From IMG/VR virus record IMGVR_UViG_2778261572_000006, positions 1 through 12,811 of that record: DNA of 12,811 nt, one strand, 5' to 3'. Below are positions 1 to 12,673 of the stretch, piece after piece. The stretch is from a virus. Its lineage: Duplodnaviria; Heunggongvirae; Uroviricota; Caudoviricetes. Both the position numbers and the translations under genes were made by a program. Below the pieces are notes generated by a model. That model was not told where the DNA came from. It was given only the letters and a program-made list of their open reading frames with translations, and ran no database searches. The first letter of the stretch is position 1, and every line of letters starts with the position of its first letter.

Positions 1-5
1 GTAAT

Positions 6-188
6 TTAAAAACGGTTCTGTGAAAGTGACACGAACCGATCTCCATCGATGTTACGGGCGACCGCCTCCTGCTGGTCTTCCGGGTAAAGGGAAATCAGTG
101 TCGCCTTGCGTTCGGCAAGAATGGTTTCAAAATCCAGCTCCTCGACCACATCCGGTGCGGGTAGCTGGTTCAGGTCGATAATCGGCAT
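6..188 (-). pseudogene. J: Baseplate assembly protein J (P2 gpJ-like), N-terminal fragment only: about 45 gpJ-like codons, then divergent sequence and an in-frame stop at 6..8
   Basis: Translation MPIIDLNQLPAPDVVEELDFETILAERKATLISLYPEDQQEAVAR matches the N-terminus of P2 gpJ as I remember it. The ORF ends after 60 codons, whereas gpJ-family proteins are about 300 aa. The start is 5 nt downstream of the W stop, as in P2 (V-W-J order). Confidence 0.65.
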
Positions 189-192
189 GGTT

Positions 193-540
193 TCAACTCA
201 CAGGGATGGTTAACGAAAGTGGCTGGCCGGTGTCGTTGTGCTGGCCGGTTAACGTGACCGTCATTCGCCCGTCAAAACTGCGCGCCGTGGTGACAGATGA
301 CAGCGTGACGCGGGGTTCCCATTTCAGCACCGCCATGTAACAGGCGACCTTAATCTGCAACTCAAGCGCCGGGGTCTGCGGCTGGTCAATCATTGACGCC
401 AGCAACGAGCCGTAATCACGACGCATCACCCGTGAGCCGACCGGTGTGCGCAGGATATCGCCGATACTCTGGCTGATATGCTCAAGGTCAGTGACCGTCA
501 GGCCATCACTGCGATTCATTCCGAGATAACGCGCTGTCAT
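193..540 (-). CDS. W: Baseplate wedge protein W (P2 gpW, gp25-like)
   Basis: The 115-aa product (MTARYLGMNRSDGLTVTDLEHISQSIGDILRTPVGSRVMRRDYGSLLASMIDQPQ...) matches remembered P2 gpW in length and sequence. Its start overlaps the V stop (ATGA-type coupling) and synteny is V-W-J. Confidence 0.9.
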   Translation of the reverse strand: MTARYLGMNRSDGLTVTDLEHISQSIGDILRTPVGSRVMRRDYGSLLASMIDQPQTPALELQIKVACYMAVLKWEPRVTLSSVTTARSFDGRMTVTLTGQHNDTGQPLSLTIPVS

Positions 541-1172
541 AGAGGGCTCCCGGTTGTGCCGCCGCTGTCGCCGGGGTGTTTATGGGTATGCAGTACCTTA
601 CCGTTTGATGAGAGTTCACCGCCGGTGTGTTCAATGTTGCCGCGCATCGTCCCGCCCTTCTGCACTTCCAGCGTGCCGGTAATCAGCCTGTTGGTGCAAA
701 CCACCTCCGGTGTGTCCAGGGTGACGCGGGTTGATGCTTTCACCATGACCACCGGCACCGTGGCAGTAACAGAATCAGAAGCCGTCACGCTGGCCGTTTT
801 AATTCCGCTTGCCGTGAGTGCACTGGTTTCGGGTTCATACTCAATCACCGCCCCGTCAGGGAAACGGATATGCAGGGCATCCGCCGACGCAGACGGCGCG
901 GGGTTATCGCCGGAATAAATCCCCGGCAGAACGAACGCCGTGTCGAGTTCACCGCCCACAGCCAGAATCAGCACCTGTTCCCCCACGGAAGGTGCCCACC
1001 ATGTGCGCGAACGTCCGGCGCGATGGGTCAGCCACTGAAGCCAGTCGGTGCACATGCCACCGGTCTGCACACGGCAGCGACCGGCTTTAAGGTTGGTTTC
1101 GACGACAAGGCCGGTACGAATCATGTTGCGCAGTGCGCGCGCGAGTTCCTGAATATTTGCGAGAGTGTTCAT
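537..1172 (-). CDS. V: Baseplate spike/hub protein V (P2 gpV)
   Basis: The ORF 537..1190 contains MNTLANIQELARALRNMIRTGLVVET..., which matches the P2 gpV N-terminus from the 7th codon. I take the ATG at 1172 as the start (211 aa); the upstream ATG at 1190 is a less likely alternative. Confidence 0.85.
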   Translation of the reverse strand: MNTLANIQELARALRNMIRTGLVVETNLKAGRCRVQTGGMCTDWLQWLTHRAGRSRTWWAPSVGEQVLILAVGGELDTAFVLPGIYSGDNPAPSASADALHIRFPDGAVIEYEPETSALTASGIKTASVTASDSVTATVPVVMVKASTRVTLDTPEVVCTNRLITGTLEVQKGGTMRGNIEHTGGELSSNGKVLHTHKHPGDSGGTTGSPL

Positions 1173-1255
1173 GCGTGTGAGATTGCACAATATATAAAAG
1201 TTATGCTATCTGGATTCATTTGTAGAACGACCATACAACATTCGAGGAGAGCGTA
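1173..1255. promoter_or_regulatory. Divergent intergenic region between V (minus) and the AT-rich gene (plus); candidate Ogr-type late promoter for V with a partial TGT-N11-ACA dyad at 1221..1237
   Basis: An 83-bp AT-rich spacer lies between two divergent start codons. TGT at 1221..1223 and ACA at 1235..1237 resemble the P2 late-promoter TGT-N12-ACA element, but the spacing is off by one. A GAGGAG Shine-Dalgarno sits 6 nt before the ATG at 1256. Confidence 0.3.
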
Positions 1256-2041
1256 ATGTTCAGTGATAATGTGACTAATGCGTGGTGGTTTATCTCTTTG
1301 TATCTATTTTTATTAATAGCATTAACATTTATTACCTTTGGTAAAAGTAATCTTATGAGGTTTATTGCACATTATTTCAATTTTGAGTATTCAGACAGAA
1401 AGTTAAAAATGCTCGACAAAAAATGGCGCGACATTCAACTATTTAAAATAATTAACGGAATCAATGTATCAGGCATCGAAGATGTGAGAATGATACAGCA
1501 GGGGCTGATTGATGGAAAACTAAAAACATCGTATTTTTTTCTTACTCGCTTCTGGGGTGACATAACAAAACCACCACACATAATTAAAACAATAATTGTA
1601 ATTCTGTCCAGCATTATTTATATTCTCTTCGCATGTTATATACACAACAAACAATCCGCTATAGTAAGAGATGCCATAGGCATACCATATAAAAAGATGA
1701 TGTACTATGTTTATAGTGACAAAGTTCTTTTATCCTTCAACAATAAAACAGTTGAATTCAATAAAACTTATAGCCTTGCCGATTGCAAGAGGCTACGAAA
1801 CGTATTTATAAAAGACACACTTCCTGAGATCGCCTGCAATAAGCTCTTACAGCTAAACGAGGAGGACTCGGAATGGTTAAGTCAGGAGATTAAAGATAAT
1901 AACAGCCAAAAAAAAGCATTATTAATAATATCCCTCATCTATTTCATTTCAGGTCTGGTTATATTCCTGTCATATACAAAATTCCTTTACGCCAATAAGA
2001 AGGTTGTAGAATACAAAGCATCAAATAAAAATCACTCATAA
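1256..2041 (+). CDS. AT-rich predicted integral membrane protein (three hydrophobic segments), function unknown; moron at the position of P2 orf30 (between S and V)
   Basis: A 261-codon ORF with a GAGGAG RBS 6 nt upstream. Hydrophobic stretches WWFISLYLFLLIALTFITF, IIKTIIVILSSIIYILFACYI and ALLIISLIYFISGLVIFLSY. Codon usage is very AT-rich (many AAA/AAT/ATT/TTA), unlike the flanking P2 genes. It is followed by a hairpin terminator. Confidence 0.6.
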   Translation: MFSDNVTNAWWFISLYLFLLIALTFITFGKSNLMRFIAHYFNFEYSDRKLKMLDKKWRDIQLFKIINGINVSGIEDVRMIQQGLIDGKLKTSYFFLTRFWGDITKPPHIIKTIIVILSSIIYILFACYIHNKQSAIVRDAIGIPYKKMMYYVYSDKVLLSFNNKTVEFNKTYSLADCKRLRNVFIKDTLPEIACNKLLQLNEEDSEWLSQEIKDNNSQKKALLIISLIYFISGLVIFLSYTKFLYANKKVVEYKASNKNHS

Positions 2042-2046
2042 ACCTC

Positions 2047-2086
2047 TAAACATTGAGCGACCAGCATGGCCGCTCAATGTTTAATT
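2047..2086. terminator. Bidirectional intrinsic terminator hairpin between convergent genes
   Basis: Perfect inverted repeat CATTGAGCG (2051..2059) and CGCTCAATG (2071..2079) with an 11-nt loop, extendable to a 13-bp stem (2047..2059 pairing 2071..2083). It is flanked by TTTAATT on the plus strand and an A/T run on the other side, and lies between the stop at 2041 (plus) and the stop at 2113 (minus). Confidence 0.6.
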
Positions 2087-2206
2087 GCGCATCAGCCTCT
2101 GCCTGGATAAAACTAACGCTCAAGGTGAGCCAGGATAATCTCTTCAATCATCTGCACATCCTCACCGGTAAAGCCGAGCAGAGGACGCGCCGGATAATCA
2201 ATTTTC

Positions 2207-2683
2207 TTACCGTCTTTCCGGTTTTCTTCCGACAGACCGAACTGATGCACACTGGCGATTTTCGGTGACTTTCCGCCGTAAAACTCCATTGATGCCTGTT
2301 CCGGGCTGGCGCGGATAACGCGCCCACAGGTCCAGCGTTTTGTAGCGGATATAAAAATCGAAGTTAATCTGGTCGCATTCGTACTTGTTTGACGCCAGCT
2401 TCGAGAAGTCCTTCGGCTGACGCTCGGTGCCACCGGCGGTGTCGGTGGTGCTGGCGATGGAGCCGGTGACACCAATACCAATTTTTTCCCCTTTCATTTC
2501 GCTGACCGGCACAATGTTGATGCGGGTCAGAAAATCAGAGGACTCCTGCATGGTGTTCATCAGGGTCTGGGTGACCGACGGTTCAACGGTGAATTTTTTC
2601 GACACATCACCGGCGTCGATGCCGTTCAGTTCGGCAACACGGGACAGGTAGGCATTAAATTTAAAGCGGGTTTCCTGGCGCAT
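2207..2683 (-). pseudogene. N: Major capsid protein N (P2 gpN), 5' fragment: first ~123 codons intact, then out-of-frame or unrelated sequence and a stop
   Basis: Translation MRQETRFKFNAYLSRVAELNGIDAGDVSKKFTVEPSVTQTLMNTMQESSDFLTRINIVPVSEMKGEKIGIGVTGSIASTTDTAGGTERQPKDFSKLASNKYECDQINFDFYIRYKTLDLWARY matches remembered P2 gpN. gpN is about 357 aa, but only about 570 bp exist between the start (2683) and the terminator (about 2110), so the gene cannot be complete. The expected downstream genes M, L, X, lysis, R and S are absent. Confidence 0.75.
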
Positions 2684-2741
2684 AGTTTTTCCTGAAATTA
2701 AGGGTTAATCGTGAAGGTTTTCCCGGACTGACTGACGCCGG

Positions 2742-3596
2742 TCAGCAGTTCGTCATCAGGGCGTCACCGCCACCGCCGGTGGCCTTGCTGCGGCGCTGCT
2801 GGGTCAGACTTTCGGTGTGGTCGAGGCTGTTTTTCAGGCGGGTGAATGCCTGGCTGGTTTCATCCGCCCTGTCAGTCACATCCTGCTTAAGTGCGGAAAA
2901 GGCGGTTTCCATCTCAGCGAGGCGCTGCTCAGTGGCGCTCAGTTTTTCCTGCACATGTTCAGCAACAGCGGTCACCGCTTCATGCACGTCATTCAGACGG
3001 GCGTCATCGCTGGCCTGTTTGCGGCCAAAAATGGATTTCACCTTTTCGGTCAGGGCGGTGAACACGGTTTCAGGCAGGTCTTCAAATTCCAGCTCAACAG
3101 GCGTTGCCACTGAAATCAGGTTTTCAGGGCTTAATTTGAAGCGGTTCAGGGGGTTGTGTTTTGCCGTGCGGCAGAATTCCAGGTATTCCGTGCCGAGGCT
3201 TGCCGGGTCATCGGTGACGGCCAGCCCCACCAGATAACATTTGCCGGTGTTGGCAAAGTTCGGCTGAATTTCCATTGAGGTGTAGACCTTCTGCGCGGCC
3301 TTGTTCATCGCGATAAGGTCATCGGTCGGGGTGATTTTCGCAAACAGCGCCCATTTGCCTTTCAGCGCCGAATCATCGTCAATCTTTTCGGCCTTCAGTT
3401 CGACCACATCGCCATAACGCTTAAAAATACCGTCAGGCAGGATGCCGCGCAGATGTTCCAGGTTAATGCGGCAACCATAGACTCGCGGGTCAAAGGTTTC
3501 GGCCATTTCCTGAATATCCTGCGCACTGATGACACGCCCGTCACAGGTGTCACCCTCAACGCCGATACGAAAGAATTTTGAGACTTTTTTTGCCAT
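2742..3596 (-). CDS. O: Capsid scaffolding protein O (P2 gpO)
   Basis: Product from MAKKVSKFFRIGVEGDTCDGRVISAQDIQEMAETFDPRVYG... to ...GGGGDALMTNC (284 aa) matches remembered P2 gpO. The ATG at 3596 is preceded by AGGAGTCCTGACA. The ORF-track start at 3662 is an upstream in-frame extension, not the real start. Confidence 0.9.
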   Translation of the reverse strand: MAKKVSKFFRIGVEGDTCDGRVISAQDIQEMAETFDPRVYGCRINLEHLRGILPDGIFKRYGDVVELKAEKIDDDSALKGKWALFAKITPTDDLIAMNKAAQKVYTSMEIQPNFANTGKCYLVGLAVTDDPASLGTEYLEFCRTAKHNPLNRFKLSPENLISVATPVELEFEDLPETVFTALTEKVKSIFGRKQASDDARLNDVHEAVTAVAEHVQEKLSATEQRLAEMETAFSALKQDVTDRADETSQAFTRLKNSLDHTESLTQQRRSKATGGGGDALMTNC

Positions 3597-3769
3597 TGTC
3601 AGGAGTCCTGAATAGTGATTAGAGGAGTCACATGTCGGCATCAGTTTCCCGACGATGCGCATCCTCCGCCATCAGTCCCGGATGGCTTATCACTGACACA
3701 ACAGCACCTTAGCGAATCGCGGGGCGCGACTCAGTAGCCTTGCCGTGTATTCATCACGGCGAGGTATTC
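3597..3769. promoter_or_regulatory. Divergent O/P intergenic region (expected site of P2 late promoters PO and PP); contains the dyad GTCGG-N10-CCGAC at 3634..3653
   Basis: A 173-bp spacer lies between divergent start codons of O (minus) and P (plus). A perfect 5-bp inverted repeat with a 10-nt spacer is seen directly. Assignment as Ogr-dependent late promoters is by synteny with P2 only. Confidence 0.35.
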
Positions 3770-5542
3770 ATGACCATCACCACAGACACCACTCTTTTAC
3801 ACGACCCGCGTCGTCAGGCGGCGCTGCTGTACTGGCAGGGATTTTCCGTGCCGCAGATTGCCACCATGTTGCAGATGAAACGCCCGACGGTGCAGAGCTG
3901 GAAACAGCGCGACGGCTGGGACAGCGTTGCCCCCATCAGCCGTGTCGAAATGAGTCTGGAAGCGCGGCTGACCCAGCTCATCATCAAACCGCAGAAAACC
4001 GGCGGTGACTTCAAGGAAATTGACCTGCTCGGACGCCAGATTGAACGACTGGCACGGGTCAACCGCTACAGCCAGACCGGCAACGAGGCAGACCTTAATC
4101 CGAACGTCGCTAACCGCAACAAAGGCGGGCGGCGCAAACCGAAAAAGAATTTTTTCAGTGACGAGGCCATCGAAAAGCTGGAGCAGATTTTCTTTGAGCA
4201 GTCTTTCGAATATCAGTTGCACTGGTATCGCGCCGGGCTTGAGCACCGCATCCGCGATATCCTGAAATCCCGCCAGATTGGCGCGACGTTTTATTTTTCC
4301 CGCGAGGCGCTGCTGCGCGCCCTGAAAACCGGTCATAACCAGATTTTTCTGTCGGCCAGTAAAACGCAGGCGTATGTGTTCCGCGAATACATCATCGCCT
4401 TTGCCCGGCTGGTTGACGTTGACCTGACCGGTGACCCAATTGTCCTGGGCAATAACGGCGCAAAACTGATTTTTCTCGGCACCAACTCCAACACCGCGCA
4501 GAGCCATAACGGCGACCTGTACGTCGACGAGATTTTCTGGATCCCGAATTTTCAGGTGCTCCGTAAGGTGGCATCAGGTATGGCCTCACAGAGTCACCTG
4601 CGCTCGACCTATTTCTCCACCCCGTCCACGCTGGCGCACGACGCCTACCCGTTCTGGTCCGGTGAACTGTTTAACCGGGGACGCGCCAGCGCCGCCGAAC
4701 GCGTGGAAATCGACGTCAGTCATAACGCCCTTGCCGGTGGGCTTCTCTGTGCGGACGGCCAGTGGCGGCAGATTGTCACCATTGAGGACGCCCTGAAAGG
4801 CGGCTGCACATTGTTCGACATTGAGCAGCTTAAACGCGAAAACAGCGCCGACGATTTTAAAAACCTGTTCATGTGTGAATTTGTTGACGACAAGGCGTCG
4901 GTGTTCCCGTTCGAGGAGCTGCAACGCTGCATGGTCGACACGCTGGAAGAATGGGAAGACTATGCGCCGTTTGCCGCGAATCCGTTCGGCTCCCGCCCGG
5001 TATGGATTGGTTACGACCCGTCACACCGTGGCGACAGCGCCGGATGCGTGGTGCTGGCACCGCCGGTGGTGGCCGGTGGCAAATTCAGAATACTTGAGCG
5101 TCACCAGTGGAAAGGCATGGACTTTGCCACTCAGGCGGAATCCATCCGCAAACTCACCGAAAAATACAACGTCGAATACATCGGTATTGATGCCACCGGC
5201 CTCGGTGTCGGCGTGTTCCAGCTCGTGCGCTCGTTCTATCCCGCCGCGCGCGATATCCGCTACACACCGGAAATGAAAACCGCAATGGTGCTCAAGGCAA
5301 AAGACGTTATCCGCCGTGGCTGTCTGGAATATGACGTCAGCGCCACCGACATCACCAGCTCGTTTATGGCTATCCGCAAGACCATGACCAGCAGCGGACG
5401 CAGCGCCACCTATGAGGCCAGCCGCAGCGAGGAAGCCAGCCACGCCGACCTCGCCTGGGCGACCATGCACGCCCTGTTAAATGAGCCACTCACCGCCGGT
5501 ATCAGCACCCCACTGACATCCACCATTCTGGAGTTTTACTGA
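3770..5542 (+). CDS. P: Terminase large (ATPase) subunit P (P2 gpP)
   Basis: Product MTITTDTTLLHDPRRQAALLYWQGFSVPQIATMLQMKRPT... (590 aa) matches remembered P2 gpP. A GAGG RBS precedes the ATG at 3770, and the stop overlaps the Q start by 1 nt. The ORF-track start at 3740 is an upstream extension. Confidence 0.9.
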   Translation: MTITTDTTLLHDPRRQAALLYWQGFSVPQIATMLQMKRPTVQSWKQRDGWDSVAPISRVEMSLEARLTQLIIKPQKTGGDFKEIDLLGRQIERLARVNRYSQTGNEADLNPNVANRNKGGRRKPKKNFFSDEAIEKLEQIFFEQSFEYQLHWYRAGLEHRIRDILKSRQIGATFYFSREALLRALKTGHNQIFLSASKTQAYVFREYIIAFARLVDVDLTGDPIVLGNNGAKLIFLGTNSNTAQSHNGDLYVDEIFWIPNFQVLRKVASGMASQSHLRSTYFSTPSTLAHDAYPFWSGELFNRGRASAAERVEIDVSHNALAGGLLCADGQWRQIVTIEDALKGGCTLFDIEQLKRENSADDFKNLFMCEFVDDKASVFPFEELQRCMVDTLEEWEDYAPFAANPFGSRPVWIGYDPSHRGDSAGCVVLAPPVVAGGKFRILERHQWKGMDFATQAESIRKLTEKYNVEYIGIDATGLGVGVFQLVRSFYPAARDIRYTPEMKTAMVLKAKDVIRRGCLEYDVSATDITSSFMAIRKTMTSSGRSATYEASRSEEASHADLAWATMHALLNEPLTAGISTPLTSTILEFY

Positions 5543-6576
5543 TGAGCAAGAAAAAAGGGAAAACACCGCAACCTGCGGCAAAAACAATGACCGCCAGCGC
5601 CCCGAAAATGGAGGCATTCACCTTTGGTGAGCCGGTGCCGGTACTCGACCGCCGTGACATTCTGGATTACGTCGAGTGCATCAGTAACGGCAGATGGTAT
5701 GAGCCGCCGGTCAGCTTTACCGGTCTGGCGAAAAGCCTGCGTGCTGCCGTGCATCACAGCTCGCCGATTTACGTCAAACGCAATATTCTGGCCTCGACAT
5801 TTATCCCGCATCCGTGGCTTTCCCAGCAGGATTTCAGCCGCTTTGTGCTGGATTTTCTGGTGTTCGGTAATGCGTTTCTGGAAAAGCGTTACAGCACCAC
5901 CGGTAAGGTCATCAGACTGGAAACCTCACCGGCAAAATATACCCGCCGTGGCGTGGAGGAGGATGTTTACTGGTGGGTGCCGTCCTTCAACGAGCCGACA
6001 GCCTTCGCGCCCGGCTCCGTGTTTCACCTGCTGGAGCCGGATATCAATCAGGAGCTGTACGGCCTGCCGGAATATCTCAGCGCCCTTAACTCTGCCTGGC
6101 TGAATGAGTCGGCCACGCTGTTCCGCCGCAAGTATTACGAAAACGGCGCACATGCCGGATACATCATGTACGTCACCGATGCCGTGCAGGATCGCAACGA
6201 TATCGAAATGCTTCGCGAAAACATGGTGAAATCGAAAGGCCGCAACAACTTTAAAAACCTGTTTCTCTATGCCCCGCAGGGAAAAGCCGACGGCATTAAA
6301 ATTATCCCGCTCAGTGAAGTGGCGACGAAGGACGATTTTTTTAATATCAAAAAAGCCAGTGCCGCAGACCTGCTGGACGCGCACCGCATCCCCTTTCAGT
6401 TGATGGGCGGCAAACCGGAGAACGTCGGGTCGCTGGGCGATATTGAGAAAGTAGCAAAGGTCTTTGTCCGCAATGAGCTTATCCCGTTACAGGACAGGAT
6501 CCGCGAGATAAACGGCTGGCTCGGTCAGGAGGTCATCCGATTTAAAAACTACTCACTGGACACTGACAACGGCTGA
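5542..6576 (+). CDS. Q: Portal protein Q (P2 gpQ)
   Basis: The 344-aa product MSKKKGKTPQPAAKTMTASAPKMEAFTFGEPVPVLDRRDILDYVECISNGRWYEPP... matches remembered P2 gpQ. It is translationally coupled to P and followed by a terminator and the cos site, as in P2. Confidence 0.9.
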   Translation: MSKKKGKTPQPAAKTMTASAPKMEAFTFGEPVPVLDRRDILDYVECISNGRWYEPPVSFTGLAKSLRAAVHHSSPIYVKRNILASTFIPHPWLSQQDFSRFVLDFLVFGNAFLEKRYSTTGKVIRLETSPAKYTRRGVEEDVYWWVPSFNEPTAFAPGSVFHLLEPDINQELYGLPEYLSALNSAWLNESATLFRRKYYENGAHAGYIMYVTDAVQDRNDIEMLRENMVKSKGRNNFKNLFLYAPQGKADGIKIIPLSEVATKDDFFNIKKASAADLLDAHRIPFQLMGGKPENVGSLGDIEKVAKVFVRNELIPLQDRIREINGWLGQEVIRFKNYSLDTDNG

Positions 6577-6765: not shown

Positions 6766-6991
6766 GCCCGCTTCATGGGTCGGTTTTGATGCAATTCCAA
6801 AAGCCGTCCTAACTCTCTTAGGCTAAATGTCCAACGAGAAAATAGTTCTTTGAATGTGAATGCATTTTAATGCAGAGTTATGCCCAGCATTTTTGTACAC
6901 TTCGATGTATCAAATGCGCTGCAAACGATCAAATATGGATGTTTTATCAAGCATCCCCCAAAAGATATTTACATCATCCCATGAGGTTAAG

Positions 6992-8065
6992 ATGGATAAC
7001 AAAATCGTAGAAATTGAGACAAATAAGCTTGATTTTGACCCTAAAAACCCACGTTTCTTTCGTCTCAATGATGCCAGTAACGCTGCAACAGTCATTGAGG
7101 AAATGTTAGATGACGAAAGTGTCCACGATCTAATGCTATCAATCGGTCAGCAAGGTTACTTTCCTGGAGAACCTTTATTGGCAGTAAAAAGCAATGGAAA
7201 CTACATCGTGGTTGAGGGAAACAGACGCTTAGCTGCTGTAAAGTTGCTCAATGGAGATCTGCTTCCTCCAAAAAGAAAACTTAAAGGTGTGCAAGAAATC
7301 ATTGATGATACTACCAATAAACCTAAGAAGCTTCCCTGCATCATTTATGAAAACCGAGAGGATGTACTGAGATATATCGGTTATCGTCATATAACTGGGG
7401 TCAAAGAATGGGACTCATTATCTAAAGCCAAATACCTTAAAGAGTTATGTGATACTTTTTATTCACATGAGCCTAAAGAGATAGTATTAAAAAATCTGGC
7501 TCGTGAGATTGGGAGTAAACCACATTATGTTGCAACACTTCTCACTGCACTGAACTTATATGAAGTCGCGCATGACCATGAGTTTTTTAATTTACCCATG
7601 AAGGCTTCTGACGTGGAATTTTCATATATAACCACAGCTTTGGGATATTCAAAAATCACAAACTGGTTAGGTCTACAGGATAAAAAGGATTTTTTAGACC
7701 CAAATTTAAATGAAGAAAACCTTAAGCGTTTATTCTCTTGGTTTTTTGTGCCTGACCAACAAGGTAGAACCATCATCGGTGAGTCTCGAAGAATAAAAGA
7801 TATTGCAGCAGTGGTTGAGAAACCCGAAGCAATTGAAATTCTCATGAAAAGTTCAAACTTGGATGAAGCATATCTATATACCAGCGGAGAAAGAGAAGCA
7901 TTAGATAAAGCACTAAACGCAGCTAGTGTTAAATTAAGAGTAGTTTGGGATATGCTACTTAAAGCTAAAGAATTAACATTAGAGCATGAAGAGGCTGCAT
8001 CTGAAATTTTTGAGATGTCAAAAAATATTAGAAATCAGATCAGAAGCAAAAGGGAGGATGATTGA
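6992..8065 (+). CDS. ParB/Srx N-terminal-domain protein (ParB-like NTPase/nuclease-type domain), 357 aa; candidate defence-module component
   Basis: ATG at 6992 is preceded by GAGGT 6 nt upstream. Motifs KLDFDPKNPRF and YIVVEGNRRLAAVKLL fit the ParB N-terminal-domain pattern (xPNPxQPR ... GERRxRAA-type arginine box). Codon usage is AT-rich. The ORF-track start at 6860 adds 44 non-conserved-looking codons and is treated as leader. Confidence 0.6.
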   Translation: MDNKIVEIETNKLDFDPKNPRFFRLNDASNAATVIEEMLDDESVHDLMLSIGQQGYFPGEPLLAVKSNGNYIVVEGNRRLAAVKLLNGDLLPPKRKLKGVQEIIDDTTNKPKKLPCIIYENREDVLRYIGYRHITGVKEWDSLSKAKYLKELCDTFYSHEPKEIVLKNLAREIGSKPHYVATLLTALNLYEVAHDHEFFNLPMKASDVEFSYITTALGYSKITNWLGLQDKKDFLDPNLNEENLKRLFSWFFVPDQQGRTIIGESRRIKDIAAVVEKPEAIEILMKSSNLDEAYLYTSGEREALDKALNAASVKLRVVWDMLLKAKELTLEHEEAASEIFEMSKNIRNQIRSKREDD

Positions 8066-8069
8066 GATT

Positions 8070-9095
8070 ATGATTACAAATCTTGATTCAATGCCTTCTA
8101 ATGAGCCTTATTTATGGGCTGATTATATTGAGATATTGGCCTTAACTAATATCGACAGGTCATTCAGTCGAGGAGACCTATATAGCACACTGCAAGCTCA
8201 ACCCGAAGCAGTACTAGCTGAAACAGATGAAGCAGAAGAAGAGGGCGTTTATGATGTTGATGATGAAAATGATGCGCCTGTACGCAAGAGAACAAAACGA
8301 AGTGTTAGTCGAGCATATACTGACAGAAAGTGGAGCTATGCGATAGGCTTCATACGACAACGCATTGATTTATTTGGGGATAGTTACCCTTTTACTTTAT
8401 CAGAAGACAACGATACTGTAGAGTTACGTGATATATCAGAAAAGCCACTGGAACATTTAGAAAGACTATATTTAGCTTTACTAATCTGTGCTAACATAAA
8501 ATATGTCAACATAATGAGCAGAAGAGAGATAACGCGCAGTTTTGAACTAATTAGTTTACCTATTTTTGAAAGCCTAATGCCTAGCGGTAGCATAATAAAA
8601 GCATGCTGGGCTTCTGGTGGTCAAGCGGCCCCTTACACTGGAACTCTATATAATAAATTTAAGAGTATTGCTTCCGATATCCGTTGCACAGCGAACTTCA
8701 AAGAACGAGATTTCAGTCGAGGAAATAGTGGTGACGGAGGCCTTGACATAATTGCCTGGCATCCAATGGGAGATCAACGAGATGCCATCCCTATTTCTTT
8801 TGTTCAGTGTGGCTGTTCTCAAGAAGAGTGGGAAGCGAAGCAGCTTGAGGCCTCACCTGCGATGCTCTACAGTAAATTCCCCGTAGCTCACCGATGGGCA
8901 ACTTATTATTTCTTACCTCAAGATCTACGATGGATAGATGGTGAGTGGGCGCATAAAAATAAGTTAGGCGATGCTATTTTTGTTGATCGCCTAAGATTAA
9001 TCAATTTAACCAGAGCATCTGATAATATTGATCACAGTCAAAATATTAGCTATCTAGATATCATCCTTGATCCTTCCAGCGCGATCGCTGCTTAA
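8070..9095 (+). CDS. Hypothetical protein with a C-terminal Mrr-like PD-(D/E)xK nuclease-type motif, 341 aa; candidate defence effector
   Basis: ATG at 8070 lies 12 nt after GGAGG (8053..8057), which is inside the last codons of the upstream gene; an alternative ATG is at 8058. The motif GDGGLDIIAW ... ISFVQCGC ... EEWEAK resembles the Mrr catalytic core GDGG[IV]D ... QxK, from memory. An acidic stretch (ETDEAEEEGVYDVDDENDAP) is followed by a basic patch (VRKRTKRSVSR). AT-rich. Confidence 0.55.
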   Translation: MITNLDSMPSNEPYLWADYIEILALTNIDRSFSRGDLYSTLQAQPEAVLAETDEAEEEGVYDVDDENDAPVRKRTKRSVSRAYTDRKWSYAIGFIRQRIDLFGDSYPFTLSEDNDTVELRDISEKPLEHLERLYLALLICANIKYVNIMSRREITRSFELISLPIFESLMPSGSIIKACWASGGQAAPYTGTLYNKFKSIASDIRCTANFKERDFSRGNSGDGGLDIIAWHPMGDQRDAIPISFVQCGCSQEEWEAKQLEASPAMLYSKFPVAHRWATYYFLPQDLRWIDGEWAHKNKLGDAIFVDRLRLINLTRASDNIDHSQNISYLDIILDPSSAIAA

Positions 9096-10030
9096 TCCCA
9101 TAAATCTGGAAGGTTTCTAGCAACCGCCTCAAACAATGGAGGCGGTACTGCATTACCTACCACAGTATATTTCATATTAATAGAAGCCCGTTCAGTTTCT
9201 GGGAAAATTAAATCCCCAAAACCTTGTAAAATAGCAGCCTCTCGATAGCTAAACCTACGAGCTGGTGCATCCGAAGTAAATTGCCACTTATCAGGTCCCA
9301 ATTTTTCTAATGTTGGACTTATTGGATGTAGAGGCATATGTCTAGGATTTGCAACAATTGTTTTAGATATCTGATCCCAATCTTGCCTACGGTTTCGCGA
9401 TAGATAATACCAATGAAAATCGGCGTCATAAAACTCGCCAACAGGCCAAACAGGCATATGCCCAATAGCATCACGAATTGTGGAATATGGTGTCAAACCA
9501 TCACCATGTGTTGGTTTTGGAAATTTGTATGTAATACCGTAGTCCTTTCGTATTCCTACGATAAAGATTCGCTTCCTATCTTGGGATACCCCATAATGGG
9601 ACGCATTCAGAATTTGCGAGCTTACTGTATAACCTGCTTCTTCGAAAACTTTGAATTGATCCTTTAATAAATGCTCAAAGTTACGCCTTACCATACCAGA
9701 GACATTCTCTACAATGAATGCTTTTGGCTTAATTTTACTCAAAGCACGGGCAAACTCTAAATATAGTGTATTAATCTTTCTATCTGCCTTCCTTGCCCCA
9801 CCTTGACTAAATCCTTGGCAAGGATAGCATCCGATGAGCAACTCAGCAGAAGGGAACGACTGGAGCCCTGAGATATCGCCCAAAATGTAGTCAGTTTCAG
9901 GATGGTTTTCTAAGTAAACGTCCCTTGCGTAAGGCAAAATATCATTTGCCATAAGCACATTGAAACCTGCGTTCAAAACTCCCGCATCAGAACCACCACA
10001 TCCAGAAAAAAGTGAAACTACAGTTGGCAT
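9092..10030 (-). CDS. DNA (cytosine-5)-methyltransferase, 312 aa
   Basis: Canonical C5-MTase motifs in order: SLFSGCGG (motif I, FxGxG), GCYPCQGFS (motif IV, PCQ catalytic Cys), ENV (motif VI), QDRKRIFIVG (motif VIII), then a ~100-aa variable region and RRFSYREAAILQGF ... VGNAVPPPLFEAV (motifs IX/X). An AGGAGG RBS lies 6 nt before the ATG at 10030. Its stop codon overlaps the stop of the convergent gene ending at 9095. Confidence 0.85.
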   Translation of the reverse strand: MPTVVSLFSGCGGSDAGVLNAGFNVLMANDILPYARDVYLENHPETDYILGDISGLQSFPSAELLIGCYPCQGFSQGGARKADRKINTLYLEFARALSKIKPKAFIVENVSGMVRRNFEHLLKDQFKVFEEAGYTVSSQILNASHYGVSQDRKRIFIVGIRKDYGITYKFPKPTHGDGLTPYSTIRDAIGHMPVWPVGEFYDADFHWYYLSRNRRQDWDQISKTIVANPRHMPLHPISPTLEKLGPDKWQFTSDAPARRFSYREAAILQGFGDLIFPETERASINMKYTVVGNAVPPPLFEAVARNLPDLWD

Positions 10031-10272: not shown

Positions 10273-10491
10273 CTATCGTCTGCGTTGTGGTGGCGCAACT
10301 CTGGACTGACCGATATGGTTAAACCGCCCGTAATTATCCCGGACTATTTCGGCACACCCGACCAGCTCATCGGGCGTCAGATTTTCGTTGACCATAATCC
10401 GCTGTAAACGCTGAACAATAGCCATCAGCTTGATATTTTTAGTTTTATGGTGCGGTATCTCGCCTGGTATTCTGTGCATTATCCAAGCCAC
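10273..10491 (-). CDS. Small hypothetical ORF (50-72 codons depending on start), uncertain
   Basis: An ORF in the interval between the DUF3850-like gene and the methyltransferase. There is no convincing RBS for any of the three in-frame ATGs (10491, 10479, 10425), and it overlaps the 3' end of the upstream gene. Kept only as a possibility. Confidence 0.25.
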   Translation of the reverse strand: MAWIMHRIPGEIPHHKTKNIKLMAIVQRLQRIMVNENLTPDELVGCAEIVRDNYGRFNHIGQSRVAPPQRRR

Positions 10492-10921
10492 CCGTTTTGC
10501 TGTGCACGCTCCATCTGTTCATCTGAATAGTTCCATGCTCCATCCGTGGCAACCATTGCCCCGCCAGACATCCCCGTCTCTGGTTCATACATAACAGCAA
10601 GGCCGAGCTGATGCATAATTTCATGATTAATTCTGAATACCAAGCCACGCTCACTAAGTTCTTTCCAGTTCACAATCTCATATGCGCCTGTATTAAGCAG
10701 CTCAATACTTAGCAAGACATAATCTTCCAGCCAGTCTGACAGGTCAGTAACATCTGTTATCCGGGCTTCAACATTTCGCCCCGTATACACACCCTGCACC
10801 CATTCATACAAAATCAACGTGTCCCCGCGCTCATAATTACGGTCATTTTTCCGGAACTCTGCACGTTTCTTTCCTTCCAGCACAAGGTCGAAATATTTTG
10901 CGTGCAGCTTTACCTCGTGAA
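10479..10921 (-). CDS. DUF3850/ASCH-like (PUA-fold) domain protein, about 147 aa
   Basis: ATG at 10921 is preceded by GGAGTGGA. The N-terminal MAKIHEVKLHAKYFDLVLEGKKRAEFRKNDRNYERGDTLILYE fits the ASCH/DUF3850 pattern (GxKxxExR ... GDxLxL). It lies immediately downstream of gene A on the same strand. The ORF-track start at 10967 overlaps the A stop and is less likely. Confidence 0.55.
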
Positions 10922-10930
10922 TTTTTGCCA

Positions 10931-12673
10931 TTATGTCCACTCCATTACTGTTGAGAATCCCGGCCACTCATCAGCGACCGGATACGTGAATTTTTTCCCG
11001 TCATAATTTACGGTCGCGCCACGCGCCAGCGCCTCAAGCTCCCATCGCTGCGGCCTGATACCGTTCTGAGCAAGGTCAACGCGGATACGGGTAATTTGCG
11101 TTCGTTCCGACCGGGTCAGTCTGGCCGATGGCGCTATTTCATGTGGTTTTAACGGGCTTCCGTTTCTCTGCTGACGATTTGGTGTTCTCAGTTCGTGTTT
11201 TAATGCACCTCTGAGCGCCCTCACGACCTCCGGGTCATTCCATTCGATAACACCGTCATCAACCAGATTAAGCACTGCTGCGGCGTGCTCAGAAGGCGTG
11301 GGAGCCGGTAACGAAGTATCACCACCGGTGAGCTTTCCACAGTTATTGACAGGACTCCGAGGCGCGGCGATGCCGCTTTTTAAAGTCAAAGGCTCAACGA
11401 CCGGAACTTTCGGCACAATGCGCCAGTCCGTCGTTCTGGTGATATGAATATGACGCGCGCCGAGATGCGGCGCGTAAATGCCGACCACTCTCTCGACTTC
11501 TTCCTCGTACTCGTTAACGTCATCCGACGGGCTACGGGCGACCCTGACAGTCTGACAATCGCGCGGGACATTTGCCCCGCCCTGCGCGCTGATATACAAC
11601 GCAAAATCACCACTGTCTGCGGCGGCGCGTGCAGCCTCGACGCGTTCGTCAAACTCATCAGCAATGCTGACGCCGCGAGGCAATTTGCGTAGCTCACGGT
11701 AAGCCCCCATTGTCGGCAGGCCAACCGTTTTAAATTGCGGAATGCGCCACGTTGACGCCCATGCGGTAACAGCCGCGGCAGTATCTTTAAGCGGCTTACC
11801 GGTATCGTTATCGAGCTGACCATCCAGTGCATAGCCGTCGATGTTTTTTGAGATGTATTTCGCGATATATCCCGCAGCACCGCCCCGGTTAAGGTGTTTT
11901 GCCTGAAAACGGTTTCGCGCGGCTCCTCTTTCGTCTCCATCCTCTTTGAGCGCGTAGCGACGCATGATTTCAATAATCTGGTTACGCTGGCGTGGATTAC
12001 AAAAAAGCATCATATGCCAGTGCGGCGTTCCGTCGTGGTGTGGCTCGACGACACGCAAACCGTAGACCTGTAAATCATTATCCTTGAATGCCGTGCGCAT
12101 CAGGCTCCAGATACGGCAGAGATAACGCTGCGCATCCTTTGGATTAAATGCCTCATCGTTCCAGCCGTGATTAAGCTGCACGGTTTTACTTTCGCCTTTT
12201 CCGACCTGACGTGTCGGGTGATACTTTGACGGCGCGGTCAGCGTGATAAACATCCCCACATCACCCTCTGCAGCGGCGTAACGCTCAATACCGGCAATGG
12301 TGTTCATCAGCTCCATCCGGCGAATTTCAGGATTAGAAATACTGCCCATCACCTTACTGATAAGGTCGATGCGCTCGCCGGTTTCCCTGTTTTCAAGGTC
12401 ACACGATTTAAGAAATTCCAGATTTGCCTGGCGGCGCGCACGCACATCACGAATGGCATGTTTACTGGCATAAGGAGAACGGTCTTTATTGACCTCCCCG
12501 ACAGCTATCAGTAACGCTTCATGCCAGCGCATACGCTGGCCTTTAAGCTGATGAGTCCACCACTCATCGTTAAACAGGCGGGCAATGGCAGAATATGCCT
12601 GCCTCGTGGTCATCTGCCCTTTACGGTATTTTTTCCAGTAAAGCGGGGAAATATTGAAAGCACATGCAGCGCC
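10931..12673 (-). pseudogene. A: Replication initiation protein A (P2 gpA, rolling-circle HUH endonuclease), 5'-truncated by an IS10 insertion; about 580 C-terminal codons remain
   Basis: The product contains the HUH-type motif PHWHMMLF and the active-site tyrosine region GYIAKYISKN and ends ...FSTVMEWT, as in remembered P2 gpA. Reading upstream of the first ATG (12613), the frame continues as ...AFNISPLYWKKYRKGQ, which is still gpA-like, up to 12673. There it abuts the IS10 terminus, and an in-frame stop follows 4 codons into the IS. Confidence 0.85.

What the first reader, a model, noticed from the sequence alone, without database searches (positions are those of the whole stretch)
1256..2041. 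AT-rich three-TM membrane protein moron between the capsid remnant and V
This 261-aa ORF has its own RBS and a downstream hairpin terminator. It has three strongly hydrophobic segments (N-terminal, central, C-terminal) and extremely AT-rich codon usage, and it is on the opposite strand from all neighbouring phage genes. It occupies the S-V intergenic position where P2 carries the AT-rich orf30 of unknown function. Small membrane proteins in such slots are often superinfection-exclusion or abortive-infection factors, but I recognise no family motif here.
Basis: partly seen in the sequence, partly recalled or inferred. Interest (0 to 1): 0.55.

Follow-up and report, generated by a model that had tools for sequence, protein, structure and literature searches.

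The report
Phage P2 orf30 membrane-protein gene
This AT-rich gene is a copy of phage P2's long-known but still uncharacterised non-essential gene orf30, which encodes a three-pass inner-membrane protein that sits in a variable cargo slot of P2-like prophages and probably helps the lysogen, perhaps by keeping other phages out.

Summary
There is a 261-aa ORF at 1256-2041(+) with 32% GC, against 54-60% in its neighbours. It has a GAGGAG ribosome-binding site, three hydrophobic helices and a strong hairpin 5 nt downstream.

It does not merely occupy the orf30 position: it is orf30. It is 84.7% identical to P2 Orf30 (annotated 'nonessential'), matches PHROG 2407 over its full length, and the exact protein occurs in hundreds of assemblies. 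It is therefore an already known gene of unknown function.

New here:
- The family is small (44 clusters at 50% identity) and restricted to Enterobacterales.
- In 20 of 22 P2-context loci it lies beside and divergent from baseplate gene V.
- Every member is AT-rich.
- It is remotely linked to Pfam DUF6216.
- The predicted topology is N-terminus out, C-terminus in, with a cytoplasmic helical domain and a periplasmic beta domain carrying two conserved cysteines.
- It is under purifying selection (dN/dS about 0.45).
- It stays intact in several decayed P2 prophages, including this window, which has a 4.7-kb N-to-S deletion.

No sequence or fold match to any characterised protein or defence system was found, and no promoter or expression evidence. 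An anti-phage role at the envelope is the best guess (about 0.35) and is untested. Interest is modest.

The parts
1214..1241 (-). Activator (Ogr) binding site of the late promoter pV, placed by position-for-position homology to the P2 record. It lies only 15-42 bp upstream of the orf30 ATG, so any orf30 promoter must overlap the pV control region or the 5' end of V.
   Evidence: P2 annotation, (L001 2959-2986 against orf30 start 3001). The intergenic sequences are almost identical.
1244..1249 (+). Shine-Dalgarno sequence GAGGAG, 6 nt before the ATG.
   Evidence: Sequence read. P2 has AAGGAG at the same place.
1256..2041 (+). orf30 coding sequence (261 aa plus stop), an orthologue of phage P2 orf30 / PHROG 2407.
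   Evidence: (84.7% aa identity to AAD03281), and (the exact protein is in intact P2 prophages).
1280..1342 (+). TM1 (residues 9-29). The N-terminus is predicted to be periplasmic. This is the fastest-evolving part (pN/pS 1.18).
1343..1576 (+). Predicted cytoplasmic helical domain (residues 30-107), carrying the family motif D59-x-Q61-L-F-K/R-x3-G68-I/V-N-V-x4-D76-A ... G87. pN/pS 0.33.
   Evidence: Alignment A2, AF2 model, positive-inside counts.
1577..1645 (+). TM2 (residues 108-130).
1646..1912 (+). Predicted periplasmic domain (residues 131-219): a four-stranded beta meander plus two helices. Cys177 is conserved in 26/27 and Cys194 in 27/27 members, a probable disulfide. pN/pS 0.34.
1913..2038 (+). 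TM3 (residues 220-242) and a lysine-rich cytoplasmic tail (243-261). Both are part of one long helix spanning residues 202-260.
2047..2083 (.). A 13-16-bp-stem hairpin shared by the convergent orf30 and S transcripts. P2 annotates it as the putative rho-independent terminator of the O operon.
   Evidence: The only Rfam match is a spurious sub-threshold miRNA hit.
2113..2317 (-). C-terminal 67 codons of tail-completion gene S. This is the true right-hand neighbour of orf30 and the left edge of the deletion.
   Evidence: phrog_26/8396 match; blastn against the intact prophage L004.
2314..2683 (-). N-terminal 123 codons of major capsid gene N. A 4-bp microhomology junction at 2314-2317 marks a 4,713-bp deletion that removed the 3' part of N, all of M, L, X, Y, K, lysA, lysB, lysC and R, and the 5' part of S. 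The prophage is therefore defective.
   Evidence: Pfam Phage_cap_P2 positions 1-117 of 327.

Best explanation
Identity (shown). This is the phage P2 accessory gene orf30, carried here by a defective P2-type prophage. It is a non-essential insertion in the S-V cargo slot, transcribed away from baseplate gene V, and it ends at the hairpin that also terminates the opposing late (O) operon.

Anatomy (predicted). The product is an inner-membrane protein with three transmembrane helices: N-terminus in the periplasm, C-terminus in the cytoplasm. It has a ~75-residue cytoplasmic helical domain with the family's conserved D-x-Q-L-F-K/R...G-I/V-N-V...D-A motif. It also has a ~85-residue periplasmic beta/alpha domain held by a conserved cysteine pair.

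Mechanism (inferred, not shown). It is a lysogenic-conversion gene that benefits the lysogen and is kept even when the prophage decays. The most likely action is phage exclusion at the cell envelope. The periplasmic domain would meet an incoming phage's tail tip or ejected proteins, or a host inner-membrane factor they need, and DNA entry would be blocked in the way P22 SieA or T4 Imm act. Because the gene is 32% GC, it is likely to be under H-NS-type silencing, so expression in a standard lysogen may be low.

Probabilities: identity as orf30 about 0.97; host- or prophage-beneficial accessory envelope protein about 0.7; entry-blocking exclusion specifically about 0.35.
For: Identity:
- tblastn gives 84.7% identity to P2 Orf30 and 98.5% to P24A7b, 261/261 aa.
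- The P2 record annotates the gene as 'nonessential' and annotates the terminator.
- phrog_2407 matches at E=1.8e-143.
- The exact protein occurs in intact P2 prophages between V and S.

Real, selected gene:
- All alleles are 786 bp, with dN/dS 0.2-0.58.
- Both soluble loops have pN/pS about 0.33, whereas TM1 is at 1.18.

Topology:
- Three hydrophobic helices.
- AF2 model with pLDDT 85, pTM 0.74.
- Family-wide flanking charge is net +1.5 to +2.4 on the predicted cytoplasmic flanks and -0.8 to +0.4 on the periplasmic flanks. There are exactly two conserved Cys, both in loop 2.

Accessory cargo in a hotspot:
- Empty 66-bp S-V gaps in 3/3 sampled relatives.
- orf30 is in 464 of 5,426 complete E. 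coli genomes, against about 1,590 carrying a full-length match to V.
- The same slot elsewhere holds a DUF4062 protein, the PADLOC candidate PDC-S59 (E=1.7e-196), and HigBA plus an ORF6N protein.
- The literature names orf30 as the third variable region of P2-like phages (PMC3091744, PMC2771037).

Retention after prophage decay:
- The gene is intact in this window despite the 4.7-kb deletion.
- It is intact in the E. coli B remnant, which lacks Q through S.
- It is intact in the V-truncated lineage.
- A family member is intact in an Enterobacter remnant with a V::D fusion and S/R fragments, and in a Leclercia remnant.
- 461 of 464 E. coli copies are full length, while only 376 sit in an intact W-V-orf30-S-R context.

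Precedent (established knowledge): the other AT-rich P2 cargo genes (old, tin, Z/fun) are all phage-exclusion genes. P22 sieA is likewise an opposite-strand membrane-protein gene at the end of the virion operon.
Against: - No experiment or transcript evidence is available. No sigma-70 consensus promoter lies upstream.
- There is no PADLOC, Pfam or NCBIfam hit.
- hhalign probability is <1% against SieA, SieB and RexB.
- P2 lysogens have been studied for decades, and the known exclusion phenotypes are assigned to old, tin and fun, not orf30 (my knowledge).
- Retention in remnants is anecdotal. The copies are partly clonal, and cases were found by searching for the gene itself.
- The H-NS nucleation motif is not enriched.
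Confidence: 0.4

Rival explanations
1. Abortive-infection or toxic membrane effector. Orf30 is kept silent (for example by H-NS acting on its AT-rich DNA). When expressed, or triggered by an infecting phage, it permeabilises or depolarises the inner membrane. The cell dies or arrests before the phage completes its cycle, in the manner of lambda RexB-type systems.
For: - It is a three-TM protein with a long amphipathic C-terminal helix.
- AT-richness persists across the whole family. This fits genes that must be silenced.
- No consensus promoter was found.
- A September 2026 preprint on H-NS-silenced antiviral immunity contains 'DUF6216' once, 'P2-like' 4 times and 'BL21' 29 times. E. coli B carries a 99.5%-identical orf30 in its P2-like remnant. 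Family members hit DUF6216.
Against: - The preprint could not be read. It contains neither 'orf30' nor 'membrane protein', so the link is unverified.
- There is no partner sensor gene. The gene is solitary in nearly all loci.
- No similarity to RexB.
- Two well-conserved soluble domains, one probably disulfide-bonded in the periplasm, suggest specific binding rather than simple pore formation.
Confidence: 0.2
2. Lysogenic conversion unrelated to phages. Orf30 is an envelope protein that changes host physiology, for example envelope-stress signalling, resistance to bile, serum or colicins, or colonisation. It is retained for that reason.
For: - The same retention-in-remnants and purifying-selection data apply.
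- P2-like cargo slots also carry non-defence genes such as neaT and cdt (PMC3573123; PMC9122126).
- A trans-membrane layout with a cytoplasmic and a periplasmic domain resembles small signalling or anti-sigma-type proteins.
Against: - There are no enzymatic or signalling motifs and no homology to any characterised host factor.
- The family is essentially confined to P2-like elements rather than spread through chromosomes.
Confidence: 0.25
3. A function in the phage's own lytic cycle, for example modulating lysis timing, protecting the infected cell from lysis-from-without or from re-infection by sister particles during late infection, or assisting tail or baseplate maturation at the membrane.
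For: - In 20 of 22 P2-context loci it lies immediately beside V, and it is near the lysis cassette.
- Pairwise divergence correlates with that of S (rho 0.55) and V (rho 0.26), so it partly co-diverges with the backbone.
Against: - It is annotated as non-essential in P2.
- It is absent from most close relatives, which are viable phages such as W-phi and L-413C (PMC2771037).
- It is on the strand opposite to all late operons. The Ogr site sits too close to the ATG to activate it (parts list).
- It stays intact in prophages that have lost head, lysis and tail genes.
Confidence: 0.1
4. A non-functional, selfish or spurious ORF: an AT-rich insertion with an open frame that persists by hitch-hiking.
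For: No function has been assigned in about 30 years, there is no promoter consensus, and gene-wide dN/dS (~0.45) is higher than for V and S.
Against: - Length is conserved at exactly 786 bp across alleles that differ by up to 14% in nucleotide sequence.
- The soluble loops have pN/pS 0.33.
- A family of 44 clusters at 50% identity keeps the same architecture and invariant residues G68, G87, C194 and I212 down to ~20% identity.
- The AF2 model is confident.
Confidence: 0.03

Closest known systems
Bacteriophage P2 Orf30 (GenBank AF063097, AAD03281; PHROG 2407)
   Same: This is the same gene. It is 261 aa and 84.7% identical, lies in the same place between S and V, has the same divergent orientation from V, has a near-identical 83-bp V-orf30 intergenic region, and shares the same downstream hairpin.
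   Different: It is an allele about 9% diverged in nucleotide sequence, with most amino-acid changes in TM1 and TM2. Here it sits in a prophage with a 4.7-kb N-to-S deletion. P2 Orf30 itself has no known function beyond 'nonessential'.
Pfam DUF6216 (PF19723), uncharacterised membrane-protein family
   Same: The length is similar (model of 270 positions) and the match is full length. Eight of 27 family members hit it, and one member (P0029, Sodalis, also in a V-S slot) scores 28.9 bits, above the 27.3-bit gathering threshold.
   Different: The window protein itself gives no hit at E<=0.05, so the relation is transitive and remote. DUF6216 has no assigned function either.
P22 SieA (superinfection exclusion, inner membrane)
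   Same: It is a small multi-pass inner-membrane protein encoded on the strand opposite to the virion operon, at that operon's end. It is non-essential, and its expression from the prophage is established knowledge. This is the working analogy for mechanism.
   Different: There is no detectable homology (hhalign probability 0.3%). SieA is 164 aa against 261 aa, and SieA has no counterpart of the two soluble domains. An exclusion phenotype for Orf30 is untested.
Lambda RexB and T4 Imm/Sp (membrane components of exclusion systems)
   Same: These are phage-encoded inner-membrane proteins that protect the infected or lysogenic cell from other phages.
   Different: There is no homology to RexB; Imm and Sp were not tested. 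RexB needs the partner RexA, whereas orf30 is solitary.
P2 cargo genes old, tin and Z/fun, and the P2 defence hotspots of Rousset et al. 2022
   Same: These are AT-rich, non-essential, variable cargo between conserved P2 genes. The S-V slot shows the same presence/absence and replacement behaviour, and elsewhere it holds defence-associated genes (PDC-S59, a DUF4062 protein, HigBA).
   Different: The published hotspot analyses that could be read cover the A-Q slot (PMC9122126) and also the G-FI slot (10.1101/2024.10.15.618418). They do not cover S-V. In addition, old, tin and fun are soluble proteins with known exclusion phenotypes.

Membership tests
P2 Orf30 / PHROG 2407 | Full-length sequence similarity to P2 Orf30 and the PHROG profile | tested here: met
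   phrog_2407 at E=1.8e-143, positions 1-261 of 261; 84.7% aa identity to AAD03281 over 261 aa.
P2 Orf30 / PHROG 2407 | Location between tail gene S and baseplate gene V, transcribed divergently from V | tested here: met
   V lies at 537-1172(-), orf30 at 1256-2041(+) and the S remnant at 2113-2317(-). The layout is the same in P2 and in 20 of 22 P2-context loci.
P2 Orf30 / PHROG 2407 | Three-TM architecture with the conserved loop-1 motif and the loop-2 cysteine pair | tested here: met
Pfam DUF6216 (PF19723) | Score at or above the gathering threshold (27.3 bits) | tested here: not met
   The window protein gives no hit at E<=0.05. Only the family member P0029 passes (28.9 bits), and seven other members hit below threshold. 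The relation is therefore remote; it does not amount to membership.
Moron (extra gene in a prophage, in the sense of Hendrix and colleagues) | An extra gene between conserved genes that is absent from close relatives and non-essential | tested here: met
   Empty 66-bp S-V gap in 3/3 sampled relatives and in most of 1,785 genomes. Annotated 'nonessential' in P2.
Moron (extra gene in a prophage, in the sense of Hendrix and colleagues) | Deviant base composition | tested here: met
   32% GC against 54-60%. The same holds in all 21 family loci examined.
Moron (extra gene in a prophage, in the sense of Hendrix and colleagues) | Own promoter and terminator | tested here: inconclusive
   A strong hairpin is present, but it is shared with the O operon and lacks a clean U-tract. 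No sigma-70 consensus promoter lies upstream.
Moron (extra gene in a prophage, in the sense of Hendrix and colleagues) | Expressed from the repressed prophage | not testable with these tools
   No transcriptome data are accessible. The one possibly relevant preprint could not be read.
Superinfection-exclusion membrane proteins (P22 SieA, lambda/P22 SieB, T4 Imm type) | Homology to a characterised Sie protein | tested here: not met
   hhalign of A2 gives 0.3% against SieA and 0.2% against SieB. Imm was not tested.
Superinfection-exclusion membrane proteins (P22 SieA, lambda/P22 SieB, T4 Imm type) | Inner-membrane location | tested here: met
   This is a prediction only: three TM helices and the positive-inside pattern.
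Superinfection-exclusion membrane proteins (P22 SieA, lambda/P22 SieB, T4 Imm type) | Blocks DNA entry of superinfecting phage without affecting adsorption | not testable with these tools
   This requires plating, adsorption and DNA-entry assays.
Catalogued anti-phage defence systems (PADLOC-DB v2) | Match to a defence-protein model | tested here: not met
   The window protein gives no hit at E<=0.1. Among the 27 family members there are only three isolated chance-level hits.
Rex-type abortive infection (lambda RexB) | Homology to RexB and presence of a RexA-like partner | tested here: not met
   hhalign gives 0.3%. No adjacent partner gene is present.

The most novel reading that the evidence does not exclude
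Orf30/DUF6216 proteins are a previously unrecognised single-gene, envelope-level anti-phage system. They are resident in a third, overlooked P2 cargo hotspot (S-V) and are normally silenced by H-NS because of their maintained AT-richness. A disulfide-stabilised periplasmic domain senses or binds an incoming phage component, and the conserved cytoplasmic helical domain executes the block. The gene is domesticated by hosts after prophage decay, as in E. coli B/BL21.
Probability: 0.3. Interest if true: 0.6.

Novelty: already known. Interest (0 to 1): 0.3.

Why it matters
orf30 is one of the last P2 genes with no assigned function. P2 is a founding model for temperate myophages and for prophage-encoded defence (old, tin, fun).

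If Orf30 proves to be an exclusion or abortive protein, three things follow:
- It would add a third defence hotspot (S-V) to the two already mined in P2-like phages.
- It would give Pfam DUF6216 a function.
- It would explain why about 9% of complete E. coli genomes carry the gene, including laboratory B/BL21 strains that hold only a prophage remnant.

The predicted topology, the cysteine pair and the conserved loop motif give precise handles for mutagenesis. If instead the gene has no phenotype, it is simply a catalogued hypothetical gene, and the finding is ordinary.

Tried and rejected
Searches on the window protein that found nothing useful:
- Pfam, NCBIfam and PADLOC gave only sub-threshold noise: DUF6535 at 19 bits, and an antiporter-subunit model at 15.7 bits.
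- The word-indexed protein search found only 5-7 close relatives, even with a profile.
- The exhaustive HMMER run was needed to see the family of 44 representatives.

Structure comparisons:
- Foldseek against BFVD and PDB gave E>=0.2 with TM-scores about 0.13; the claudin/TARP hits only reflect 'TM helices plus an extracellular sheet'.
- The afdb50 library was unavailable.
- A profile search of PDB sequences found nothing.

Homology to characterised exclusion proteins: hhalign against P22 SieA, P22 SieB and lambda RexB was negative.

Sequence features in the window:
- The promoter scan found no + strand sigma-70 consensus site between 900 and 1256.
- Rfam gave only a spurious miRNA match to the hairpin, below threshold.
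- The H-NS high-affinity motif TCGATAAATT has no match in orf30 and is under-represented in the window.

Collection scans:
- The genome-contig scan with alignment A4 found nothing.
- The whole-family alignment A2 was too diverse for back-translation.

Literature:
- No paper in the library assigns a function to P2 orf30.
- The hotspot papers that could be read do not treat the S-V slot.
- The one paper mentioning DUF6216 together with P2-like and BL21 could not be opened.

Ideas considered and rejected:
- Ogr activates orf30 divergently from the pV site. The site centre is only ~28 bp from the ATG, so a -55 activation geometry would place the transcription start inside the coding region.
- The ORF starts at an internal Met. 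M1 and TM1 are conserved across the family.
Full report
**What is there.** The window is a P2-type prophage segment. On the - strand lie J' (6-188), W (193-540) and V (537-1172). Further right on the - strand are an N-terminal remnant of capsid gene N (to 2683) and the scaffold gene O (2742-3662). On the + strand are the terminase gene P and the portal gene Q (3740-6576). Next comes an AT-rich cargo island (6860-10030), and then the replication gene A (10931-12613, -).

The finding is the 261-codon ORF at 1256-2041(+). Every descriptive claim checks out:
- GAGGAG lies 6 nt before the ATG.
- GC is 32.3%, against 54-60% in the phage backbone.
- Three strongly hydrophobic 19-residue windows fall at about residues 9-29, 108-130 and 220-242.
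- A hairpin at 2047-2083 folds at -21 kcal/mol on the + strand and -27 kcal/mol on the - strand, far better than shuffled sequence.

Three refinements are needed:
- The hairpin has no clean U-run. In P2 it is annotated as the terminator of the convergent O operon.
- No sigma-70 consensus promoter was found upstream.
- The right-hand neighbour is a 205-bp remnant of tail gene S, not the capsid remnant itself.

**Identity.** In fact this is orf30.
- tblastn against isolated phages finds 21 Peduovirus records, all full length. Identity is 98.5% to P24A7b and 84.7% to P2 Orf30 (AF063097, 'nonessential').
- The protein matches PHROG 2407 end to end (E=1.8e-143, function unknown).
- The exact 261-aa sequence is on record in 739 blocks of the assembly collection. 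In the six contexts shown it lies in intact P2 prophages between V and S.
- The V-orf30 intergenic region is almost identical to that of P2.

The literature held here treats orf30 only as an ORF of unknown function and as one of three variable regions of P2-like phages. Those regions are the TO region, Z/fun and orf30 (PMC2771037, PMC3091744, PMC6823313). The defence-hotspot papers that could be read deal with the A-Q slot (PMC9122126) and also the G-FI slot (the iLund4u preprint), not with S-V.

**The family.** The word-indexed search found only five clusters. An exhaustive HMMER profile search of 1.84 billion representatives found 44 clusters at 50% identity, most of them 250-270 aa.

A 27-sequence alignment goes down to ~17% identity with the window protein. 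It keeps:
- the three hydrophobic segments;
- a loop-1 motif, D59-x-Q61-L-F-K/R-x3-G68-I/V-N-V-x4-D76-A ... G87;
- two cysteines in loop 2, C177 (26/27) and C194 (27/27).

Eight of the 27 members hit Pfam DUF6216. One of them (P0029, Sodalis) scores above the gathering threshold over the full length. The window protein itself does not hit. So the Orf30 family is a remote relative of DUF6216, which is itself uncharacterised.

**Context of relatives.**
- In 20 of 22 P2-context loci the homologue lies immediately beside, and divergent from, V and upstream of S. These loci come from E. coli, IMG/VR contigs, Sodalis and Yersinia frederiksenii.
- In two related contigs it lies beyond R instead. There the V-S slot holds the PADLOC candidate PDC-S59.
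- All members have 30-39% GC in backbones of 47-63% GC, although their proteins average only 32% pairwise identity. AT-richness is therefore a maintained family trait, not a mark of recent arrival.
- Pairwise divergence correlates with that of S (rho 0.55) and V (rho 0.26), similar to V against S (rho 0.43). This indicates long residence in this phage lineage, with mosaic exchange.

**Population data in E. coli.**
- orf30 (>=80% nucleotide identity) is in 464 of 5,426 complete genomes. It is always chromosomal and is full length in 461.
- A full-length match to V is in about 1,590 genomes.
- Three of three sampled V-positive, orf30-negative prophages have an empty 66-bp S-V gap. A ranked spread of 1,785 matching genomes shows that this is the commonest state.
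- Other occupants of the slot include a 246-aa ORF on the late strand, a 361-aa ORF, a DUF4062 protein, and HigBA plus an ORF6N protein beside a family member.

The S-V slot is thus a genuine cargo hotspot, and orf30 is one of its cassettes.

**Selection.** Eight alleles differing by up to 14% in nucleotide sequence are all exactly 786 bp.
- Pairwise dN/dS is 0.21-0.58 (mostly about 0.45), against 0.08-0.37 for V and 0.02-0.25 (one outlier pair 0.62) for S.
- By region, the two soluble loops and the C-tail are constrained (pN/pS 0.23-0.34). TM1 evolves neutrally (1.18), and TM2 and TM3 are intermediate.

This is a real protein whose soluble domains matter.

**Structure and topology.** AlphaFold2 with the 27-sequence alignment gives pLDDT 85 and pTM 0.74. 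The model contains:
- a helix at 6-40, containing TM1;
- a small helical domain at 48-94;
- a helix at 109-134, containing TM2;
- a four-stranded beta meander (141-173) followed by two short helices (174-198);
- one long helix at 202-260, containing TM3.

Family-wide charge counts fit the positive-inside rule for N-out/C-in. Net charge is +2.4, +1.5 and +1.8 on the predicted cytoplasmic flanks, against -0.8, +0.4 and +0.1 on the periplasmic flanks. Loop 2 carries on average exactly two cysteines, while loop 1 carries 0.3. That fits a periplasmic disulfide-bonded domain. These are predictions, not measurements.

No fold relative was found, and afdb50 was unavailable.

**Retention in decayed prophages.** The window's prophage has a 4,713-bp deletion with 4-bp microhomology. 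It joins N codon ~123 to the last 67 codons of S. It removes the 3' part of N, all of M, L, X, Y, K, lysA, lysB, lysC and R, and the 5' part of S. The element can neither package nor lyse, yet orf30 and its hairpin are untouched.

Independent cases:
- E. coli B carries a remnant lacking everything from Q to S, with an intact orf30 that is 99.5% identical.
- A lineage represented by KBN10P04869 has a truncated V next to an intact orf30.
- An Enterobacter genome has a V::D fusion and S/R fragments around an intact homologue.
- A Leclercia genome has an intact homologue between P4-like psu/delta genes and chromosomal xanthine-dehydrogenase genes.

In E. coli, 464 genomes have orf30 but only 376 have an intact W-V-orf30-S-R block. 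This suggests host-level benefit. However, the cases are partly clonal and were ascertained through the gene itself, so it remains a suggestion.

**Mechanism.** Nothing ties the protein to a characterised mechanism:
- There is no PADLOC hit for it or, meaningfully, for its relatives.
- hhalign gives <1% against P22 SieA, P22 SieB and lambda RexB.
- There are no catalytic motifs.

The inference rests on analogy and context:
- It is a non-essential, AT-rich, opposite-strand membrane-protein gene.
- It lies in a variable slot of a phage whose other AT-rich cargo (old, tin, fun) all exclude other phages.
- It is retained when the prophage dies.
- Its layout resembles P22 sieA, which is also on the opposite strand at the end of the virion operon.

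I therefore rank the readings as follows:

| Reading | Probability |
|---|---|
| Entry-blocking exclusion at the inner membrane | ~0.35 |
| Non-defence lysogenic conversion | ~0.25 |
| Abortive or toxic membrane effector | ~0.2 |
| Role in P2's own lytic cycle | ~0.1 |
| Junk ORF | ~0.03 |

**One tantalising lead.** A September 2026 preprint, 'H-NS silences antiviral immunity through 3D chromatin compaction', contains DUF6216 once, P2-like 4 times and BL21 29 times. BL21's parent strain B carries this gene in its P2-like remnant. The text could not be opened, and it contains neither 'orf30' nor 'membrane protein'. I therefore do not count it as evidence.

**Verdict.** The object is an already known gene (P2 orf30) whose function remains open. 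The added value is a defined family, a topology model with testable residues, a link to DUF6216, and evidence of selection and of survival in prophage remnants. Interest is modest (0.3). It would rise to about 0.6 if the gene proves to be a new envelope-level defence.

Noticed in passing
window 2113-2683 (junction 2314-2317): The prophage is defective. A 4,713-bp deletion with 4-bp microhomology fuses the first ~123 codons of capsid gene N to the last 67 codons of tail gene S. It removes the 3' part of N, all of M, L, X, Y, K, lysA, lysB, lysC and R, and the 5' part of S. Only one of 5,426 complete E. coli genomes covers >=80% of window 1-3700, and it does so in two pieces. This exact deletion is therefore rare or absent in that set.
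   Followed up: partly
window 6860-10030: An AT-rich cargo island (37-41% GC) lies in the classical P2 old/tin hotspot between Q/cos and A. It contains a 401-aa ParB_N-like protein matching PADLOC PD-Lambda-5_A and PDC-M38A (E~1e-24) and phrog_3694. An overlapping 369-aa protein (phrog_3984) has no PADLOC or Pfam hit. A convergent 312-aa C5 cytosine methyltransferase matches the DruM-like model at E=1e-110. It looks like a PD-lambda-5-related defence variant with a different partner plus a methylase.
   Followed up: partly
window 10479-10967 (-): A 162-aa ASCH/DUF3850 plus DUF7415 protein is encoded just downstream of replication gene A, overlapping its end. It is a small RNA-binding-fold accessory protein of unknown role.
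   Followed up: no
L042 (E. coli B-DidR, NZ_CP115968 1757274-1790059); also L034: The P2-like remnant of E. coli B keeps int, C, cox, B and A. It also keeps an ABC-three-component defence cluster, a portal fragment fused to an S fragment, an intact orf30 (WP_000490543), the genes V to H, a glycosyltransferase in the Z/fun slot, the sheath gene and ogr. A strain labelled 'C' from cow's milk has the same arrangement.
   Followed up: partly
L049 1363-2706; L050 1358-2098; L051 1402-2487; L022 2431-3756; L025 6781-8421: The S-V slot of other P2-like prophages carries unrelated cargo. Examples are a 447-aa DUF4062 protein, a 246-aa ORF on the late strand (probably the 741-bp ORF reported in phage R18C), a 361-aa ORF and the PADLOC candidate PDC-S59 (E=1.7e-196). 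Beside a family member there is also an ORF6N protein plus a HigB/HigA pair. S-V appears to be an under-studied third hotspot.
   Followed up: partly
L047 2875-8218 (Enterobacter sp. CC120223-11): This is a decayed P2-like element. A 351-aa fusion combines the gpV N-terminal OB domain with a gpD C-terminal part. An intact Orf30-family gene, S/R fragments and a 627-aa NACHT-domain protein lie nearby.
   Followed up: no
L048 286-4750 (Leclercia adecarboxylata): An intact Orf30-family gene lies about 1 kb from P4-like satellite genes (psu, plus ORFs at the positions of delta and sid) and an HNH gene. It directly abuts chromosomal xdhC and xanthine-dehydrogenase genes. No V, W, S or R was detectable. 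This is a family member outside a recognisable P2 context.
   Followed up: partly
window 2742-3662 (-): The longest ORF for scaffold gene O is 306 aa. The Pfam GPO match starts at residue 28, and homologues are called as 284 aa, so the true start is probably an internal ATG.
   Followed up: no
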